Shown: positions 7,623 to 16,988 of the stretch, one piece after another
How positions within the stretch are numbered: position 1 is the first letter of the stretch
How the letters are laid out: every line of letters begins with the position of its first letter
Source: a virus
Taxonomy: Duplodnaviria > Caudoviricetes
Virus record (IMG/VR): IMGVR_UViG_3300020045_005943
Span: 1-29,598 of that record
Strand: one strand, 5' to 3'
Length of the DNA stretch: 29,598 bases
Translations under genes and position numbers: made by a program
Notes under the pieces: model-generated
What the model was told of the DNA's origin: nothing
Databases searched by the model: none
The model's input: only the letters and a program-made list of their open reading frames with translations

Positions 7623-7708
7623 GGAACACTGCACTAAAACAAAGCCTGAAAGTTTAGGGATTGGCGCCTCACCTGAACAGGAGCAAGATTATTCTACTCA
7701 TTACAATT

Positions 7709-8095
7709 ATGACAATCGAAGACTTAGTAAAAGAACAAATTGAACAACTTGACATAAGAGAGTTAGTTCAAGGTGAAATCAGGAAACTAATTTCTGATGA
7801 GGTGCAACGCGAAATCGTTAAAACCACAAAAGAGGAAATTCAACGAGTGATTAAAAATGAAGTTGAAATTGCTCTATCAAAAGGCGTTAACACCGATGAC
7901 GGATGGGGGAAACGGGAAAGTTATACTTCATTTGAAGAGATGTTCAAAAAGTTTTTCAAGGAGGCTCTTAACAACCAATACGAGGTTAAGAAGACTATTG
8001 AAAACCACGTTAAGGACACAACGAAAAAACTTGTTGACGAAAAAACAAAAGACATCGTTGAAGCCCTCAAAAAATCTCTTGGCGCGGGTGGCTGA
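7709..8095 (+). CDS. Hypothetical helical protein (array remnant)
   Basis: ATG at 7709. The gene ends in GCGCGGGTGGCTGA followed by an orphan AT-rich right arm. Confidence 0.7.
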   Translation: MTIEDLVKEQIEQLDIRELVQGEIRKLISDEVQREIVKTTKEEIQRVIKNEVEIALSKGVNTDDGWGKRESYTSFEEMFKKFFKEALNNQYEVKKTIENHVKDTTKKLVDEKTKDIVEALKKSLGAGG

Positions 8096-8163
8096 TTTTA
8101 AATTAAAAATTTGCACGGTGAACAGTTGAAGCAGCTACTCAAAACCTCACTACGAAGCACTAA

Positions 8164-8675
8164 AGGCTTTTTTATTTTTTAGCGTGGATTTGGAAATGTG
8201 AATTATTATGTGGATCTTTGTTACACAAAACATTAAATAATACACTTATGAAAGTAGCTTATGAATGGTGTTACGAGGTAACCGATGAACATGGGGATAT
8301 TATTGATAGCAACTTTGCTGATAAATTATCCGACTTTTCAAAAAATGAAGATGGCGAACTATTACTTGTTAGAAATGAGGGCGATGAAATTAATGGAGTT
8401 GAGGACAGGCAATGGGCTTACGTGAAGGATGGTAAATTACCCTTTAAGTTTTCAGATGCCAGAAACGTTGAGATTGATATTGATGTTCCGAAACGATTCT
8501 TTAAAGAACTTGAAAACTACCTGAAATGAAAATACACCAAACATTCAGGCTTGATTCTGATTTAATTGAAGTAGCCAAAAGTTACGCTGAAAAAGAAAAC
8601 CGTACTATTTCCAATGTTTATGAAACTGCTGTTATTGAGTATTTAAAAGCGCGTGGGCAAAAAATAAAAAAGCCT
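8164..8675. repeat. Inner inverted repeat pair 1 (17 bp, perfect)
   Basis: AGGCTTTTTTATTTTTT 8164-8180 / AAAAAATAAAAAAGCCT 8659-8675. Confidence 0.9.
8248..8529 (+). CDS. Hypothetical acidic protein
   Basis: MKVAYEWCYE...; ATG at 8248 follows an A-rich leader. Confidence 0.7.
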   Translation: MKVAYEWCYEVTDEHGDIIDSNFADKLSDFSKNEDGELLLVRNEGDEINGVEDRQWAYVKDGKLPFKFSDARNVEIDIDVPKRFFKELENYLK

Positions 8676-8690
8676 CTCACCAAACGTTAA
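8526..8690 (+). CDS. Ribbon-helix-helix (CopG/Arc-like) protein, 54 aa
   Basis: MKIHQTFRLDSDLIEVAKSYAEKENRTISNVYETAVIEYL fits the RHH pattern; ATGA overlap. Not in the ORF track. Confidence 0.7.
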   Translation: MKIHQTFRLDSDLIEVAKSYAEKENRTISNVYETAVIEYLKARGQKIKKPLTKR

Positions 8691-8694
8691 TATG

Positions 8695-9069
8695 AAATTT
8701 TAAAACAAAAAATAGCGATGGCACATGGAATGAAAATTAAGGATGATGAAAAAGCGGCTTTTATAAAAATGAATGGTGGAATATTATGGTTCATTGAAAA
8801 TAAAAGCACCGGACTTTGGTGGCATCACACCCTTGACTTAAAGGACAATCTCCCTTGCACCTGTAGAAAATGTTACCCAACCGGCTATCCATTTAAAAAA
8901 TACAAAGACGGATGGACAAATGATGTTCAAAAAGCTGATGCCTATCTTACAAAGGAACAGGCAGAACATGGAATATTCTTTTACTATACCAATGAACCAG
9001 AAACAAATTTAATAGCCACCGAACATGAATTTATACCAAGCGCGTAGGGGATTTTTTGTTTTAAAATTT
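8695..9069. repeat. Inner inverted repeat pair 2 (19 bp, perfect)
   Basis: AAATTTTAAAACAAAAAAT 8695-8713 / ATTTTTTGTTTTAAAATTT 9051-9069. Confidence 0.9.
8718..9047 (+). CDS. Hypothetical protein
   Basis: 109 aa, exactly filling inverted repeat pair 2. Confidence 0.75.
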   Translation: MAHGMKIKDDEKAAFIKMNGGILWFIENKSTGLWWHHTLDLKDNLPCTCRKCYPTGYPFKKYKDGWTNDVQKADAYLTKEQAEHGIFFYYTNEPETNLIATEHEFIPSA

Positions 9070-9088
9070 TATGCGCACGAACTACGCT

Positions 9089-9274
9089 AACGGGAGGTGC
9101 TTATGCAGTGCGATTAATTAAACTAAAAATTAAAATATGAAACACAAATTCACACTAACGCAAACAATTGAGTTGATAAGGATGAACGCTCATAGCGGCA
9201 CAAAAGAAAATTTAGAAGCGATTATCGACCTGACATACGAAGCAGAAAAATTAGCATTACATAAGCACAATGTT
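9089..9274 (+). repeat. attC-like hairpin A1, with a start codon in its loop
   Basis: TAAC-G...GTGCTTATGCAGTGC 9097-9111 / GCATTACATAAGCAC 9254-9268...T-GTTA. Confidence 0.75.
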
Positions 9275-9358
9275 ATGCCATCGTTGCCCGAATTAGACGC
9301 AGACTCTAACTGTGACCACAAAATTTTATATGAAAGACTTATTGAAAAAAGCGTTTGA
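9137..9358 (+). CDS. Hypothetical protein reading through the GTT core
   Basis: ...LALHKHNV|MPSLP...; GTT at 9272 is the Val codon. Confidence 0.55.
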   Translation: MKHKFTLTQTIELIRMNAHSGTKENLEAIIDLTYEAEKLALHKHNVMPSLPELDADSNCDHKILYERLIEKSV

Positions 9359-9557
9359 GGCTGGCGAAAGAAAGGCACACGCTCAAGATAGCACTGAGGG
9401 AATTTTAGGATTCGATACCGAACCTGATTTTGAAACATGGTACGAGCAATCGCAACAACCTATTGTTAGCGGCAGTGGCGACTTAATCCAATTCGCTATG
9501 TATTTAACGGGGCATGATGAAGACACCATTAAACAGATGTACCGTGATTGGCACTGA
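9330..9557 (+). CDS. Hypothetical protein reading through the GTT core
   Basis: MKDLLKKAFEAG...QQPIV|SGSGDL...; GTT at 9465 is the Val codon. Confidence 0.65.
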   Translation: MKDLLKKAFEAGERKAHAQDSTEGILGFDTEPDFETWYEQSQQPIVSGSGDLIQFAMYLTGHDEDTIKQMYRDWH

Positions 9558-9625
9558 GCCATCGCAGGAATGTTGCAAAGAATATATGGACAAACACAAA
9601 AAACTATCCAGCGGCAATGCGCCAT

Positions 9626-9695
9626 AACGTGCAAGTGCTTGTGTCCGGTTTGCTCCAGACACAAGACAAAGGCAAACTGGCACAAGCACGGTGTT
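9626..9695 (+). repeat. attC-like hairpin A2 (short, empty)
   Basis: AAC-gtgcaa-GTGCTTGTG(T)CCGGTTTGC-loop-GCAAACTGGCACAAGCAC-ggt-GTT, with one extrahelical T. Confidence 0.85.
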
Positions 9696-10212
9696 ATAAG
9701 CTGGCCGGGATGAACCGATGAACGAACTTAAAATAGATGAACTGAATTTTTAAACTTAACCAAGAAGCGCGGGCTTTTGAAACACCGAACGACATGAACG
9801 AAGAAGAAATTAAAAACGCTGTGATTGAATCAGTAACCATTGATATGGGTGACCGTGGATTGCTAACCGCTTGGCTACATTTGAACTATGGCGGAAGCGG
9901 CCAGGGCTTTGGCGGATTCTCACTTTACCTACCAAAATCATATACTCATTTTACAGAGAAGGGAGATTTTGCCGGACACTTTATTTTCAGATGCATGGAG
10001 ATTGCGGGCGTTGAGAAATGGGAACAGATGAAAGGCAAAACCATAAGGGTAAAATCAAGCCATAGTAAAGTGGAAGCCATCGGGCATATTGTGAAAGACG
10101 ACTGGTTCAATCCTTCACAGGACTTCACCCGTATGAGTGCGGTGGGTGGTTAAGTTTAAAAATTCTCCGCAGACACTGACCTATGAAACACGTCCCCCGG
10201 CTTGCTTATAAC
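9693..10212. repeat. GTT...AAC module with nested inner repeat pair 3
   Basis: GTTATAAGCTGGCCGGG 9693-9709 / CCCGGCTTGCTTATAAC 10196-10212; inner perfect 19 bp pair at 9744-9762 / 10147-10165. Confidence 0.9.
9794..10153 (+). CDS. Hypothetical protein
   Basis: 119 aa (KNAVIESV...GQGFGG...IGHIVKDDWFNP), filling inner pair 3. Confidence 0.8.
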   Translation: MNEEEIKNAVIESVTIDMGDRGLLTAWLHLNYGGSGQGFGGFSLYLPKSYTHFTEKGDFAGHFIFRCMEIAGVEKWEQMKGKTIRVKSSHSKVEAIGHIVKDDWFNPSQDFTRMSAVGG

Positions 10213-10333
10213 GAATCGGTGCTTGTTTAGTGCCGTGATTAACAGATTGAACTAACTTAAAAACACAAATATGACAACAACTAAAAAACCATCCACGAAG
10301 CGCAAAGCTAAGGCATTGAACAAGCACAATGTT
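10210..10333 (+). repeat. attC-like hairpin A3, with a start codon in its loop
   Basis: GTGCTTGTTTAGTGCC 10219-10234 / GGCATTGAACAAGCAC 10312-10327, between AAC and GTT. Confidence 0.85.
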
Positions 10334-10516
10334 AGCCACAGTGCCGACACACCGAAAGTATATATAGGGGGTGAAGAAGTTACCGACAAAGACACAAAAG
10401 CAATACTTCTGATACATTATGCAATGACCATATCAACACCCCGCATGAGAAAGGCAAACTTGGAATTTGTGTTGAGCCGTCCAAAGTACAAGTTGAAAGT
10501 CACAGAATCTTATTAG
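10271..10516 (+). CDS. Hypothetical protein spanning hairpin A3 and the next module
   Basis: MTTTKK...LNKHNV|SHSA.... The stop falls just before the right arm. Module arms: GTTAGCCACAGTGCC 10331-10345 / GGCATTGTGGCTAAC 10518-10532. Confidence 0.7.
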   Translation: MTTTKKPSTKRKAKALNKHNVSHSADTPKVYIGGEEVTDKDTKAILLIHYAMTISTPRMRKANLEFVLSRPKYKLKVTESY

Positions 10517-10587
10517 AGGCATTGTGGCTAACGCATTGTGGGTTTGGTGATGTGAATAATGACTATGCCGGGAAAAGTTCTGAGGAG

Positions 10588-10719
10588 ATGAAGGAAGATA
10601 TAAAGGTTCTGCTATCCTTCACAAAACCAGAATCAATTACTGCCATGATTCACTCACTCATTGAATTGCAAAAAGCTGTGTTCGATGGTCACTTAGAAGT
10701 TCCCGAGCGGGTCGGCTGA
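10588..10719 (+). CDS. Probable 3' gene fragment or short hypothetical protein
   Basis: Frame is open from 10522; ends in GAGCGGGTCGGCTGA plus an orphan right arm. Confidence 0.4.
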   Translation: MKEDIKVLLSFTKPESITAMIHSLIELQKAVFDGHLEVPERVG

Positions 10720-10872
10720 TTTAGTTTAAAAATTGTTTCGCACGAACTGAACTACGAAGAGAATGACAGAGGCTGAATTTATCCAATTTGCCGAAAACAG
10801 AATATCAGGTAAAGAGTGGCATAACACTATTGATTCAGGCTATTCTCTGTTTAAGTCAAAAAAAGAAAAACT

Positions 10873-11091
10873 ATGACACAACAATATATAACCCATCTTA
10901 ACGAATGCATTAAGGCAAATAAAGCGCATTCTATTGACCCATTTGAAGTATTCGAAAGAATGAAAAAATCAGCAATCGAAGCATATATTAAAACACGTAA
11001 TGAAGAAAATGAAGAAGGGAACATGGGGAGGCAAGCGAATAAGCACGAAGCCAAAGAAAGAACCAACCAAAGTTATCCGCGTACCCATTAG
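10873..11091 (+). CDS. Hypothetical protein
   Basis: 72-aa ORF whose 3' half overlaps the 11000-11131 gene. Confidence 0.45.
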   Translation: MTQQYITHLNECIKANKAHSIDPFEVFERMKKSAIEAYIKTRNEENEEGNMGRQANKHEAKERTNQSYPRTH

Positions 11092-11131
11092 CAAGTTACC
11101 GGCTGTACTCAAGGCTCTTGGTAAAGTTTAG
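11000..11131 (+). CDS. Small basic putative DNA-binding protein, copy 1 (43 aa)
   Basis: MKKMKKGTWGGKRISTKPKKEPTKVIRVPISKLPAVLKALGKV; paralog at 15259 differs largely by synonymous or conservative changes. Confidence 0.7.
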   Translation: MKKMKKGTWGGKRISTKPKKEPTKVIRVPISKLPAVLKALGKV

Positions 11132-11159
11132 GATGTGTCCAACTTAATAAAATAACAAC

Positions 11160-11297
11160 ATGAAAAAGAAACTTTCAAAAACCACAAAATCAAGGCCATT
11201 AACTAAACACAATGTTAGCGGTATACCAAATATGTATCCCACAGAAGCCCGCTTTGACAAAAGAAAGAATAGCGTTCAAGTTATCACTAAACGGTAA
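11160..11297 (+). CDS. 45-aa peptide reading through the GTT core
   Basis: MKKELSKTTKSRPLTKHNV|SGIPN...; the stop lies within the right arm GGTAATTGCCGCTAAC. Confidence 0.5.
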   Translation: MKKKLSKTTKSRPLTKHNVSGIPNMYPTEARFDKRKNSVQVITKR

Positions 11298-11415
11298 TTG
11301 CCGCTAACGTTTGCCGCTTTATGCAGTGCCTACACGAACTTAACTATGAAATGCGAACCTTTTTTTGAATTAAATTTTTTAAGCGTGGATTTTTGAATTT
11401 AAAACTTTAACAACT

Positions 11416-12381
11416 ATGAAAAAGTATCCGAGTATAGAACAATTTAGAAATGTGATTAGAAGCGTAAAAGCTATTCACGACTATCAAGGCAAGGACGAGG
11501 AAGGTAAAGCCATTTACCAACACAAGGATAATTACCCAACCCTGACCTTTAGAGGCACAGTAAAACTTCATGGGACGAATGCCAGTGCAGTAAAATACTC
11601 AGATGGCAGAATTGAGTTCCAATCAAGGGAAAGAGTTTTATCATTGGAAGATGATAACGCTGGATTCATGGCTGCAATGGTTGGTAAAGACTTGAACATC
11701 TTGTTTAACCAGTTTTCACCAAAAAACTATGTTGCTATTTATGGCGAATGGTGTGGTGGAAATATTCAAAAAGGAATTGCCATAAACGGACTTGGTAAAA
11801 TGTTCGTAATTTTTGGAGTGATGGTTGATGATGTTTGGGTTGACTTACCGAGTGACCTACACTCAAATGAAAATAGCATCTACAATATTTTACAGTTCCC
11901 AACTTATGAAGTTGAAATAGACTTCAATCACCCTGAGTTAGTGCAGAATAAAATAATTGAAATGACTATTTCCGTTGAGGAGTGCTGCCCGGTTGGGAAA
12001 TTCTTTAATAAGGAAGGCGTGGGTGAGGGTATAGTTTTTACTTGCCTGAAAAATCAAGAACTGAAATTTAAATCTAAGGGTGAGAAACATTCCGCATCGA
12101 AGGTAAAAACACTTAATCCGGTTGATGTTGAGGCTATAGCAAGTATCAACGAATTTGTTGAATTAGCGGTTACTGAAAATAGATTGGAACAAGGAATTTC
12201 CTTTTTCAGGGAAAACAATATTGAGGTGGAAGCTAAAAATACTGGGCAGTTTTTAGGCTGGGTTGTAAAAGATGTCTTGAAAGAAGAGAAAGACACCTTA
12301 GAAGCAAGTGGATTGGATGAGAAAAAAGTGAAAAACGCAATAGTAACAAAAGCTCGAATCTGGTTTCTGAATTGCATTTAA
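11416..12381 (+). CDS. RNA ligase, Rnl2-like nucleotidyltransferase
   Basis: Motif I KLHGTN, QSR, III YGEWCG, IIIa FVIF, IV EGIV, V KFKSK, and a C-terminal VTENRLEQ...DVLKEE domain. Confidence 0.85.
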   Translation: MKKYPSIEQFRNVIRSVKAIHDYQGKDEEGKAIYQHKDNYPTLTFRGTVKLHGTNASAVKYSDGRIEFQSRERVLSLEDDNAGFMAAMVGKDLNILFNQFSPKNYVAIYGEWCGGNIQKGIAINGLGKMFVIFGVMVDDVWVDLPSDLHSNENSIYNILQFPTYEVEIDFNHPELVQNKIIEMTISVEECCPVGKFFNKEGVGEGIVFTCLKNQELKFKSKGEKHSASKVKTLNPVDVEAIASINEFVELAVTENRLEQGISFFRENNIEVEAKNTGQFLGWVVKDVLKEEKDTLEASGLDEKKVKNAIVTKARIWFLNCI

Positions 12382-12895: not shown

Positions 12896-12969
12896 AACGC
12901 TCTCTGTGTTTGTGAGCGGTTTTGCTCCACACGAAAGACTACGGCAAAACTGGCACAAACACAGTTGTT
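12896..12969 (+). repeat. attC-like hairpin A6 (short, empty)
   Basis: AAC-gctct-CTGTGTTTGTG(A)GCGGTTTTGC / GCAAAACTGGCACAAACACAG-tt-GTT. Confidence 0.85.
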
Positions 12970-13695: not shown

Positions 13696-13764
13696 AACGG
13701 GCGAATGTTTATGACGGTTTGCTCCACACGGAAGACAAAGGCAAACTGGCATAAACATGGTGTT
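13696..13764 (+). repeat. attC-like hairpin A7 (short, empty)
   Basis: AAC-gggcga-ATGTTTATGACGGTTTGC / GCAAACTGGCATAAACAT-ggt-GTT; a relative of A2 and A6 with compensatory changes. Confidence 0.85.
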
Positions 13765-14503: not shown

Positions 14504-14592
14504 AACGACCAAGTGTTTAAAGCGTTTGGCGCTTCAAAGCTACGCCCCGTCCACGGAGGGCAAAACCGCCAAATGATTTTAAACACGGTGTT
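14504..14592 (+). repeat. attC-like hairpin A8 (short, empty)
   Basis: AAC-gaccaa-GTGTTTAAAGCGTTTGGCG / CGCCAAATGATTTTAAACAC-ggt-GTT. Confidence 0.8.
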
Positions 14593-15055: not shown

Positions 15056-15304
15056 ATGAAAATCCAACACGCTAGGAGACGTCCACAGGTGCTAGGGTGG
15101 TGCCGCTCGTTAGTGCGGCACCTTTTTTCAAAAATCATTGCAGTCAGATGGTGGAATAATCTTCCAAGACTAACCCAAATTTCATATAATTATAATGTGT
15201 TTGGAGCGCCCGATTTAGGCGAAACCGATGAACTAAGCAAAAAAGATATTATAAAAATATGGGAACTAAAAAGAAAAAAGGAACATGGGGAGGAAAGCGA
15301 GTAA
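15056..15304 (+). CDS. Hypothetical protein
   Basis: ATG at 15056 in the frame of track ORF 15023-15304; contains a terminator-like hairpin. Confidence 0.45.
   Translation: MKIQHARRRPQVLGWCRSLVRHLFSKIIAVRWWNNLPRLTQISYNYNVFGAPDLGETDELSKKDIIKIWELKRKKEHGEESE
15099..15128 (+). terminator. Intrinsic terminator-like hairpin
   Basis: GGTGCCGC-tcgttagt-GCGGCACC followed by T6. Confidence 0.55.
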
Positions 15305-15393
15305 GCACGAAACCAAAGAAGGAGCCGACTAAAGTCATGCGGATACCGATTAGCAAGATTGGGGTTATACTCAAGGCTCTTGGAAAGGCTTAG
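15259..15393 (+). CDS. Small basic putative DNA-binding protein, copy 2 (44 aa)
   Basis: MGTKKKKGTWGGKRVSTKPKKEPTKVMRIPISKIGVILKALGKA. Confidence 0.7.
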   Translation: MGTKKKKGTWGGKRVSTKPKKEPTKVMRIPISKIGVILKALGKA

Positions 15394-15457
15394 GAATTGA
15401 GCGCGGCACGTGTGGCCTTTGCAAGTGCCTTGCTACGCTCTGTCCGCCATTGTGCAT

Positions 15458-16047
15458 AACGCTTGGTGTGTTTATACAGTGCGATTATTAACAGATGAAC
15501 TTTCAACGAAGTAGTAACAAATTTTAATTTAAAAAGCAGGGAGGGGCTTACCCAACATTTAAAGTTATGAAACAATCCAACTACACATTTGCGGAAGGAT
15601 TCTATGGAACTCCGGCAATTGCAGCCAAAGCAAGAGGCGCTAAAATGAAAGCCTTTGATTGGGATAAGGCAGCCCAAATAATAAAAGAAAGGTTTGCCCA
15701 ACATCCCGATTTAAGTGCAGAGGCAGGACTTCAAGGAGACTGGAATTATACAGGTGGGGTAATCTTTGAAAACGGCAAACCGACCAAAGAAAACTATACA
15801 TACCTATCATCAAATTGGGCTGCACCAACTTTGATTTTGAGCTGGGATGGTAATGAACAAGAGGAGCTTGAATGTTCAACTGAGGCCAATGAGAGATTTG
15901 ACTCAGATAGCAAATGGGATGAAACCTCTTTGGGTATTCTTGGGATAACTCTGTAATTCATCGTGCGGCTGGTGATTTTTAAATTAAAATTTGCACGGTG
16001 AACTATCCACAACGCACTGAACTAAGCATTGTATAAACACACTTGTT
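15458..16047 (+). repeat. attC-like hairpin A9 with a whole gene in its loop (inner pair 7)
   Basis: GTGTGTTTATACAGTGC 15466-15482 / GCATTGTATAAACACAC 16026-16042; inner perfect 18 bp pair at 15518-15535 / 15976-15993. Confidence 0.85.
15567..15956 (+). CDS. Hypothetical protein
   Basis: 129 aa (FDWDKAAQIIKE...AGLQGDWNYTGG...SSNWAAP). Confidence 0.8.
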   Translation: MKQSNYTFAEGFYGTPAIAAKARGAKMKAFDWDKAAQIIKERFAQHPDLSAEAGLQGDWNYTGGVIFENGKPTKENYTYLSSNWAAPTLILSWDGNEQEELECSTEANERFDSDSKWDETSLGILGITL

Positions 16048-16108
16048 GTATGCTGGCCGCCACCGCTTTTAAAAGGATTAGAGAGACTTCGGGCGGCTTG
16101 CATACAAC
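16045..16108. repeat. Empty GTT...AAC module next to the putative attI-like site
   Basis: GTTGTATGCTGGCCGCC 16045-16061 / GGCGGCTTGCATACAAC 16092-16108. Confidence 0.85.
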
Positions 16109-16148
16109 TATACCATTGAGAAATATTTCGTAAATCAAATTTAATCCG

Positions 16149-16156
16149 TATCTTTG
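16149..16156 (+). promoter_or_regulatory. Bacteroidota -7 promoter element for the recombinase
   Basis: TATCTTTG matches TAnnTTTG and lies 4 nt before the ATG. Confidence 0.6.
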
Positions 16157-16160
16157 AATC

Positions 16161-16988
16161 ATGGATACACGGACTAAATTCGAGAATTACATGGTTCTCA
16201 GAAACTTTGCGGCCAATAGCATCACAAGCTACTTATCAGTATTTGATATAGTCGTTTCTGAGGATGAAGAAATATTCAGTCGAAGCCAGGATGAAATAAT
16301 TACATACTTAGCGAAAAAGATTAAGAAGCAAAACCTAAGCGCTTCTTATGTGGCTCAGTTCGTGTCCGTGTTCAATATCGTTATTAAACAAATTTTAAAG
16401 CGAACAGATTCGATTAAGATACCAAGACCAAACAAACCTATTATACAACCAGACATATTAACTACTGAGGAAATAATCAAGATGCTTTCTTGCATAACCA
16501 ATATTAAGCATAAGGCTATAATTTGCTTAATGTACGCCACTGGAATAAGGGTTAGTGAGGTTTGTAATATGCGAATCAACGATATTGACAAGTCAACCAA
16601 CTGCATAAAAATAAGACAGGCAAAAGGAAAAAAAGATAGGGTTGCAATGTTAGACCCAAATCTATTAAACGTACTGAGGGATTACTTTGTATCGTACAAA
16701 CCAAACGTTTACCTGTTTAATGGAGCTAAAGGTGAAAAGTATTCTAGCCGGAGTATTCAAAAAATGGTAACAGATTGCGCTGCAAAAGCAGGCATTAGAA
16801 AGCACATCTCAAGCCACTCAATGCGTCATAGTTGCTTTACTCAGTTAGTAAAAGACGGAACGGATATTAGGTATATTCAAAAACTGGCCGGTCATAAGAA
16901 CATAAACACAACCGCCCGATACTTGCAAATAGCTGACATGGATATTATTGAAATGAAAAGCCCATTTTCTAATCTGAACTTGAAATGA
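16161..16988 (+). CDS. Tyrosine recombinase/integrase (XerD/IntI-like, N-terminal SAM-like domain)
   Basis: Catalytic motifs ATGIRVSE (R), AKGKKDR (K), HSMRH, LAGH and TTARY (Y); 275 aa with no arm-binding domain. Confidence 0.95.
   Translation: MDTRTKFENYMVLRNFAANSITSYLSVFDIVVSEDEEIFSRSQDEIITYLAKKIKKQNLSASYVAQFVSVFNIVIKQILKRTDSIKIPRPNKPIIQPDILTTEEIIKMLSCITNIKHKAIICLMYATGIRVSEVCNMRINDIDKSTNCIKIRQAKGKKDRVAMLDPNLLNVLRDYFVSYKPNVYLFNGAKGEKYSSRSIQKMVTDCAAKAGIRKHISSHSMRHSCFTQLVKDGTDIRYIQKLAGHKNINTTARYLQIADMDIIEMKSPFSNLNLK

What the first reader, a model, noticed from the sequence alone, without database searches (positions are those of the whole stretch)
9137..11308. ORFs start inside the attC-like hairpin and read through the GTT core, always as a Val codon
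Seen: four ORFs cross a GTT core in the same frame: LHKHN-V-MPS (9272), QQPI-V-SGS (9465), LNKHN-V-SHS (10331) and LTKHN-V-SGI (11214). In 10331-10532 and 11214-11308 the frame fills the module and stops at its right arm. Short hairpins without such a leader (9626, 12896, 13696, 14504) are instead followed by modules holding complete genes. Inferred: either exchange at GTT creates in-frame N/C-terminal fusions, or the unit is hairpin plus following module (crossover at AAC) and the site is embedded in coding sequence. The leader/start-less correlation favours the second reading.
Basis: partly seen in the sequence, partly recalled or inferred. Interest (0 to 1): 0.82.

Follow-up and report, generated by a model that had tools for sequence, protein, structure and literature searches.

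The report
Phage genes starting inside swap hairpins
In this bacterial virus and many relatives, small genes begin inside the folded DNA joints of an integron-like row of swappable gene cassettes; whole cassettes move with their joint, yet the same protein front ends also turn up on unrelated back ends, which likely makes the array a natural protein-part mixer.

Summary
Confirmed, with corrections. All four ORFs cross a GTT core as Val, but only 9137 and 10271 start inside an intact hairpin; 9330 and 11160 cross orphan right arms. The window is a tailed-phage contig whose array ends at an attI-like AAC (16106), 55 nt before a co-oriented XerA-like recombinase that lacks the IntI insertion. Relatives gave 518 distinct sites in 119 arrays. 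In 96-135 nt hairpins, ATG-to-beyond-core ORFs fall in the Val frame 115 times of 227, against 5 and 28. Modules at least 95% identical keep the hairpin in front of them (9 of 9; identity starts at AAC), so the moving unit is hairpin plus following module. At 85-95% identity 5 of 7 have changed hairpin at GTT, and the window's own heads occur on unrelated bodies. Likely mechanism: routine cleavage of the folded gene strand at AA|C, slower exchange at G|TT. Translation and catalysis are untested. This scan noted the system before on other DNA; in print I found one such site, treated as an ordinary attC (PMC9892861).

The parts
9089..9274 (+). Long hairpin site, AAC 9089 to GTT 9272; loop holds the start of ORF 9137
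9137..9358 (+). Read-through ORF, 45-aa head + Val + 27 aa; related heads occur with other C-termini (P0134, P0139, P0136)
9330..9557 (+). Read-through ORF across orphan right arm (GTT 9465); a chimera: head shared with P0129, body shared with P0130
9626..9695 (+). Short leaderless hairpin site
9693..10212 (+). Module with complementary ends holding complete gene 9794-10153 (phrog_30930)
10210..10333 (+). 121-nt leader hairpin; ATG at 10271 inside the loop
10271..10516 (+). Read-through ORF, 20-aa head + body filling module 10331-10532; same head on its own body in 2 proteins and on unrelated bodies in 4
10520..10560 (+). Module end, AAC 10530 and a left arm without a clear partner
11160..11297 (+). 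Read-through ORF, 18-aa head across orphan right arm (GTT 11214); body matches the C-terminus of P0125
11296..11335 (+). Module end, AAC 11306 and a left arm whose right arm was not found
12896..12969 (+). Short hairpin site; 97% identical in L435, with different DNA beyond both AAC and GTTA
13696..13764 (+). Short hairpin site
14504..14592 (+). Short hairpin site
15458..16047 (+). Hairpin site whose loop holds a whole gene (15567-15956)
16045..16160 (+). Empty last module (16045-16108) ending in the attI-like AAC at 16106, with no hairpin after it
16161..16988 (+). 275-aa tyrosine recombinase, XerA-like, catalytic residues intact, no IntI-type insertion

Best explanation
This is a phage cassette array in which genes start inside the recombination hairpins and read through their GTT core as valine; near-identical cassettes run from one AAC to the next, so start and body usually travel together, likely cut by the neighbouring Xer-like recombinase on the folded gene strand, while a slower exchange at GTT, likely by the same enzyme using the other strand, joins heads to new bodies. 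The layout is an integron with the genes turned round: the gene strand plays the part of the attC bottom strand, the attI-like AAC lies 55 nt before the recombinase, and the cassette is C-hairpin-GTT-module-AA. Hairpins of about 120 nt and longer act as portable translation starts (A-rich tract, ATG, 14-45 codons, the last six spelled by the right arm, hence KHN-V or LNISD-V); short hairpins carry no start and precede modules with their own genes. Shown: geometry, frame bias, breakpoints at AAC, switches at GTT. Inferred: that the recombinase catalyses either step, single-strand chemistry, translation, and that the fusions are useful.
For: Unit: 9 of 9 module pairs at least 95% identical share the upstream hairpin, with identity starting at (T)AAC; 1 of 10 share the downstream hairpin, and that one is the near-invariant 43-nt class. 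End of array: 78 of 78 arrays with a recombinase homologue have it on the same strand; in 44 of 60 distinct recombinase loci a module-end AAC lies 38-76 nt before the estimated start; same layout in Polaribacter phage Leef_1. Strand: gene strand folds more stably in 466 of 517 sites, the other in 36; conserved G.T positions. Coding: frame bias; crude pN/pS 0.41 on 23 independent leader pairs; A at -3 in 95 of 129 in-frame starts against 23 of 79 out-of-frame ATGs; Pfam N6_N4_Mtase starts at residue 37 in four proteins whose first Met after the Val lies at body position 48-102. Exchange at GTT: 5 of 7 independent module pairs at 85-95% identity have a different hairpin, switching at the core; 44 of 49 pairs of near-identical 96-135 nt hairpins have unrelated modules; one methyltransferase family has three unrelated heads; window heads on other bodies; window hairpin 12896 bounded by both cores in L435.
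Against: No inverted cassette in 119 arrays (379,612 bases), although use of the other strand at attI would make them; selection could remove them. The 6 nt after GTTA are more alike between near-identical heads with unrelated bodies than by chance (9 of 89 pairs fully identical against 1.0%; 3 of 21 independent pairs), so some switches lie a few bases inside the module. 52 of 181 leaders are followed by a frame closed within 25 codons. 22 of the 30 longest read-through proteins have no Pfam match of their own (21 none; 1 runs into the recombinase), and the window's four have none. The recombinase lacks the insertion that IntI needs for single-strand sites (PMC7790495 passages), so the chemistry is unexplained. 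Two of the window's four cases sit on half sites. Sites are not phylogenetically independent.
Confidence: 0.62

Rival explanations
1. The unit and crossover at AAC are right, but heads meet new bodies by another route: a stock hairpin is attached when a cassette is first made, and later swaps come from short-homology recombination at the conserved core by phage recombination proteins, not from cleavage of the second strand.
For: 129 read-through ORFs fall into 122 body clusters while heads are reused (10 multi-member head clusters; in 9 every member has an unrelated body), as for uniform attC repeats in large chromosomal integrons (recalled). Raised likeness just after GTTA. No inverted cassettes. 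The window encodes a RecE-like exonuclease.
Against: Attachment at birth cannot by itself give the same body two different hairpins (5 of 7 pairs). In 14 of 21 independent pairs at most 3 of the 6 nt after GTTA match, and the window head 10271 changes body at the residue after Val in 4 of 4 unrelated proteins, leaving little homology beyond the core.
Confidence: 0.25
2. The read-through ORFs are by-products: the site's letters avoid stops in one frame, the leaders are not translated, and head-body pairing has no protein-level meaning.
For: TAA/TAG in the arm and core close one frame mechanically. Most products are short with no known family. No expression data.
Against: Frame bias persists with the site's letters left out and is confined to leader-class hairpins; pN/pS 0.41 and start-context bias; full methyltransferase domains have no other start before the domain.
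Confidence: 0.08
3. The array is a canonical-polarity integron: routine crossover at G|TT on the gene strand, so every move makes a new fusion.
For: Many head-body switches at Val.
Against: 9 of 9 versus 1 of 10 junction test; arrays end in AAC, not a whole hairpin, beside the recombinase; strong leader/open-body association.
Confidence: 0.04

Closest known systems
Integrons (IntI, attI, attC cassettes)
   Same: Array of cassettes separated by imperfect hairpins with AAC and GTT cores; complementary module ends; attI-like site next to the 5' end of a tyrosine recombinase; one strand favoured for folding; exchange at AA|C on that strand. The gene strand here opens with TAACG and closes with TGTTA like the bottom strands listed in Table S3 of PMC9892861.
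   Different: Recombinase aligns without a gap to XerA and lacks about 43 residues present in VchIntIA; genes lie on the attC bottom-equivalent strand and run towards the recombinase; no bulged base in the first 9 inner pairs of the window's intact sites; hairpin loops carry translation starts or whole genes; exchange also at the second core.
CALIN of Polaribacter phage P12002L (Qi et al. 2023, PMC9892861)
   Same: Its attC1 is a 43-nt-class site of this family, read on the gene strand.
   Different: Described as an ordinary attC cluster without integrase; attC1 was the one of six sites not recombined by IntI1. No mention of a cognate recombinase, inverted genes or ORFs crossing the site in the parts I read.
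Synthetic attC sites embedded in coding sequence (Nivina et al. 2020, PMC7439510)
   Same: Recombination hairpin that also encodes peptide; proposed for shuffling protein modules (passages).
   Different: Engineered, IntI1-dependent; here natural, widespread and with the start codon inside the hairpin.
attI1 short ORF supplying a start to start-less class 1 cassettes (recalled, not from a call)
   Same: A recombination site lends a translation start to a cassette gene.
   Different: One fixed site in attI; here each mobile hairpin carries its own start and head.
XerA/XerC/XerD recombinases
   Same: Best structural relatives by sequence (4A8E, 5HXY); NF040815 183 bits, below its 220 cut-off.
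   Different: No dif-type role tested; the gene sits at the end of cassette arrays in 78 loci.

Membership tests
Integron | Tyrosine recombinase with intact catalytic residues | tested here: met
   PF00589; R130, K155, H219, R222, H245, Y254 invariant in 54 sequences (their catalytic role is established knowledge)
Integron | IntI-specific insertion (I2 helix) | tested here: not met
   22 residues where VchIntIA has 65; gapless to XerA; TIGR02249 150 bits, cut-off 265, in two stretches
Integron | attI site next to the 5' end of the recombinase gene | tested here: met
   Hairpin-less module-end AAC 38-76 nt upstream in 44 of 60 loci, with a shared AT-rich motif; activity untested
Integron | Array of attC-type hairpins with AAC/GTT cores and complementary cassette ends | tested here: met
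   518 sites; ends complementary at 6 or more of 8 in 176 of 269 adjacent pairs, against 14 of 354 across a hairpin
Integron | Cassette gene upstream of its own attC, on the top strand, ending before the site | tested here: not met
   Unit is hairpin plus following module; ORFs start in and cross the site
Integron | Extrahelical base within the L box | tested here: not met
   No bulge in the first 9 inner pairs of the window's intact sites; 500 of 518 sites have at least 9 of 11 ungapped pairs, but my finder demands 7 of 8 ungapped pairs, so that count is partly built in
Integron | One strand of the site preferred, cut between AA and C | tested here: inconclusive
   Folding bias 466 of 517 and breakpoints at AAC fit; cleavage itself not testable here
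Integron | Recombinase-catalysed single-strand recombination | not testable with these tools
   Needs an assay
Integron | Pc promoter driving the array from attI | not tested
   Genes run towards attI, so a canonical Pc would face the wrong way (inference)
CALIN | attC cluster with no associated recombinase | tested here: not met
   Recombinase at the array end here and in 78 of 119 arrays within the DNA held

The most novel reading that the evidence does not exclude
Bacteroidota phages run a two-edged integron-like machine, driven by a recombinase without the I2 helix, whose hairpins are mobile translation-start modules: exchange at AAC moves whole genes, exchange at GTT builds new proteins by fusing any head to any body and gives start-less DNA an instant start codon, a natural engine of domain shuffling and gene birth behind many phage 'hypothetical proteins'.
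Probability: 0.4. Interest if true: 0.92.

Novelty: new variant of a known kind. Interest (0 to 1): 0.78.

Why it matters
It would be a natural case of recombination hairpins that double as coding sequence, so far shown as an engineering feat, and of cassette shuffling by a recombinase without the helix held to be the key to integrons. That makes two open questions testable: how single-strand hairpin recombination arose from Xer-like enzymes, and how cassettes gain their sites and starts. It also explains a recurring motif (..LNISD-V.., ..KHN-V..) in small phage proteins whose shared heads mislead homology searches, and gives a cultured model (Polaribacter phage Leef_1).

Tried and rejected
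Single-protein locus search with the recombinase found nothing; the alignment search did. The KHNV-type DNA pattern gave 16 hits, of which I judged 15 chance by eye (no left arm) and 1 real (L012); the 15 were left out but scanned. A DNA pattern for the 10271 head found 0 viral contigs. No window module was found in the loci held, apart from the start of the module at 9693 in L435 and a 66% match of the RNA ligase gene; the weak L012 match to body 10271 is a stand-alone gene without a site. Sequencing runs: none was listed, no RNA holder listed, so expression was not examined. The first junction test had only one informative pair and was redone with more loci. Two pattern scans pick hairpins by sequence and inflate hairpin sharing: 20 of 25 pairs at 85-95% fell to 2 of 7 once pairs that both carry a search pattern were removed; I use the corrected figure. 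Only 6 loci came from species genomes, one with a site (Mesonia, L178), so chromosomal arrays were not examined. No structure or complex prediction was run. Eight literature searches found no description of this system beyond PMC9892861; subscription journals are not covered, bioRxiv supplements are closed, and I did not see the Dryad annotation file of PMC9892861, which may show how genes lie against those sites.

Full report
Context. The window is a whole 29,598-base contig of a tailed phage: tape measure, major tail, neck, head closure, endolysin, primase/helicase and RecE-like exonuclease genes. Between about 8,100 and 16,110 lies a row of small + strand genes, followed by a 275-aa tyrosine recombinase on the same strand (16161-16988). 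A Bacteroidota host is inferred from the same layout in Polaribacter phage Leef_1, sites in P12002L and a Mesonia contig, and starts without a Shine-Dalgarno motif (0 of 129; the A-rich start context of Bacteroidota is recalled).

The observation. All four ORFs cross GTT as Val. Intact hairpins (AAC to GTT) are 9089/9272, 9626/9693, 10210/10331, 12896/12967, 13696/13762, 14504/14590 and 15458/16045. GTT 9465 and 11214 are right arms without a convincing left arm, and AAC 10530 and 11306 are left arms without a clear right arm: this array is partly decayed. So two of the four ORFs start inside an intact hairpin, and two cross half sites.

Comparative set. A recombinase alignment and hairpin patterns fetched loci. 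Of 434 sequences scanned, 194 had a site and 119 had two or more; 746 sites collapse to 518 after removing exact duplicates; shuffled controls gave none. Hairpin lengths cluster near 43, 83 and 120 nt, with a tail of longer ones.

Is the Val frame real? In loci fetched through the recombinase, 72 of 149 hairpins of 96-135 nt hold an ATG whose frame runs at least 25 codons past the core in the Val frame, against 6 and 18 in the other frames; for longer hairpins 17, 2, 2 of 41; for 61-95 nt hairpins 2, 5, 4 of 102; for the shortest 0, 7, 4 of 38. The full set agrees (115, 5, 28 of 227). Stops inside the site explain part of it, but the bias stays when openness is counted from 15 nt after the core (136, 32, 59 of 227) and is absent after 61-95 nt hairpins (25, 39, 45 of 191). 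Leader and open body go together: 129 of 181 against 43 of 337 (odds ratio 17; sites are not independent). The leaders look translated: crude pN/pS 0.41 on 23 independent pairs (ungapped, uncorrected), A at -3 in 95 of 129 in-frame starts against 23 of 79 other ATGs, and 98 of 129 bodies have no Met in their first 15 residues. Of the 30 longest read-through proteins, 9 have a Pfam match; in four N6/N4 methyltransferases the domain begins at residue 37, before any Met of the body. There is no direct expression evidence.

Where is the routine crossover? For pairs of sites in different contexts I asked whether a shared module brings the hairpin before it or after it. At 95% identity or more, 9 of 9 modules share the hairpin before them, with identity starting at the (T)AAC; 1 of 10 share the hairpin after them, that one being of the near-invariant 43-nt class; random pairs reach the threshold in 1.9%. 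Four cassettes are resolved at both ends, AAC to AAC. The recombinase is on the gene strand in 78 of 78 arrays that include one; in 48 of 60 distinct recombinase loci an AAC matching the last module start lies before the gene, in 44 of them 38-76 nt before the estimated start, with no hairpin after it; none has sites within 1.5 kb downstream. In the window this AAC is at 16106. The gene strand folds better in 466 of 517 sites, through conserved G.T positions. Read on the other strand this is the usual recombinase-attI-cassette order, with the genes reversed.

Do heads and bodies re-pair? Yes. After correcting for how loci were fetched, 2 of 7 independent module pairs at 85-95% identity and 2 of 9 below 85% still share their hairpin; in the five exceptions shown, identity begins at the core. 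Conversely 44 of 49 pairs of near-identical 96-135 nt hairpins, and 2 of 2 longer ones, precede unrelated modules; of 10 multi-member head clusters, 9 have a different body for every member. One methyltransferase family carries three unrelated heads. The window's own genes show it. The head of 10271 occurs with its own body in 2 proteins and with unrelated bodies in 4, changing right after the Val. The 9330 protein is a two-way chimera: P0129 has its head with another body, P0130 its body with another head. Heads like 9137 occur on other C-termini. The body of 11160 matches the end of P0125, which has the 10271 head. Hairpin 12896 recurs at 97% in L435 with foreign DNA beyond both cores.

Mechanism. 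Shown: geometry, polarity, AAC-bounded transfer, GTT-bounded switches. Inferred: the recombinase cuts the folded gene strand at AA|C to excise and insert cassettes at the attI-like site; occasional use of the other strand cuts at G|TT, and one such excision followed by normal insertion gives two new head-body pairs. Against this last step: no inverted cassette in 119 arrays, and raised likeness of the 6 nt after GTTA between shared heads (3 of 21 independent pairs identical, 14 of 21 at most half), which fits some switches inside the module, through cassette birth or short-homology recombination. How an enzyme without the IntI insertion handles hairpins is open: it has 22 residues where VchIntIA has 65 and aligns without a gap to XerA, and the window's sites have no bulge in the first 9 inner pairs.

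What is known. PMC9892861 (read: parts 1-4 of 7 of the text, through the conclusions, and part 1 of 2 of the supplement) reports attC clusters in phages; its P12002L attC1 is a 43-nt site of this family and was the one of six that IntI1 did not recombine. PMC7439510 (passages) engineered attC sites into proteins and proposed module shuffling. PMC7790495 (passages) states that I2 confers single-strand recombination; PMC8138268 (passages) says the insertion is essential for integron function. Other papers were seen as search listings only. Eight searches found no account of this system. The scan itself noted it on other genomes; one note reported that its frame-bias test failed, whereas mine passes with controls. 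I took the words head and body from that note and tested the claim here.

Verdict. It works like an integron but is not a member: two defining features fail (I2 insertion, gene-attC polarity) and a third fails in the window (bulged base). It is a new variant whose special trait, the subject of this finding, is a recombination site that is also the start of the gene, moved whole at one edge and re-paired at the other.

Noticed in passing
window 8692/9030, 12421/12821, 13002/13630, 13808/14433, 15518/15973: Genes inside modules and loops are flanked by a second pair of 21-43 nt inverted repeats. In relatives 79 of 280 modules have an inner exact repeat of 12 nt or more, against 0 of 280 shuffles; possibly a trace of how cassettes are made.
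   Followed up: partly
518 sites: Hairpin lengths come in steps of about 40 nt (43, 83, 120).
   Followed up: no
window 15458-16108: The newest cassette has its whole gene inside the hairpin loop and an empty 64-nt module: cargo can sit on either side of the GTT.
   Followed up: partly
L097:9746-10468: An ORF that starts in a hairpin reads through Val into the recombinase domain, as if attI had been lost and the recombinase had gained a head.
   Followed up: no
L372:1199-9811; L033:6386 and 9388: One array holds four paralogous N6/N4 methyltransferase cassettes; another holds the same cassette twice.
   Followed up: no
window 11006-11133 and 15268-15395: A 128-nt repeat (81%) encoding a short basic peptide occurs twice within the array.
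   Followed up: no
window 11416-12381: Rnl2-type RNA ligase gene among the cassettes, a possible repair function against host RNA-cutting defences (inference).
   Followed up: no
window 7660-9090: Module-end-like sequence without cores (8093-8123 matches 15973-16003) suggests the array once reached further left and has decayed.
   Followed up: no
L434 (P12002L) 30036 and 30936; 38935-40948: Beyond the published cluster, P12002L has further sites of this family on the gene strand, with no recombinase annotated.
   Followed up: partly
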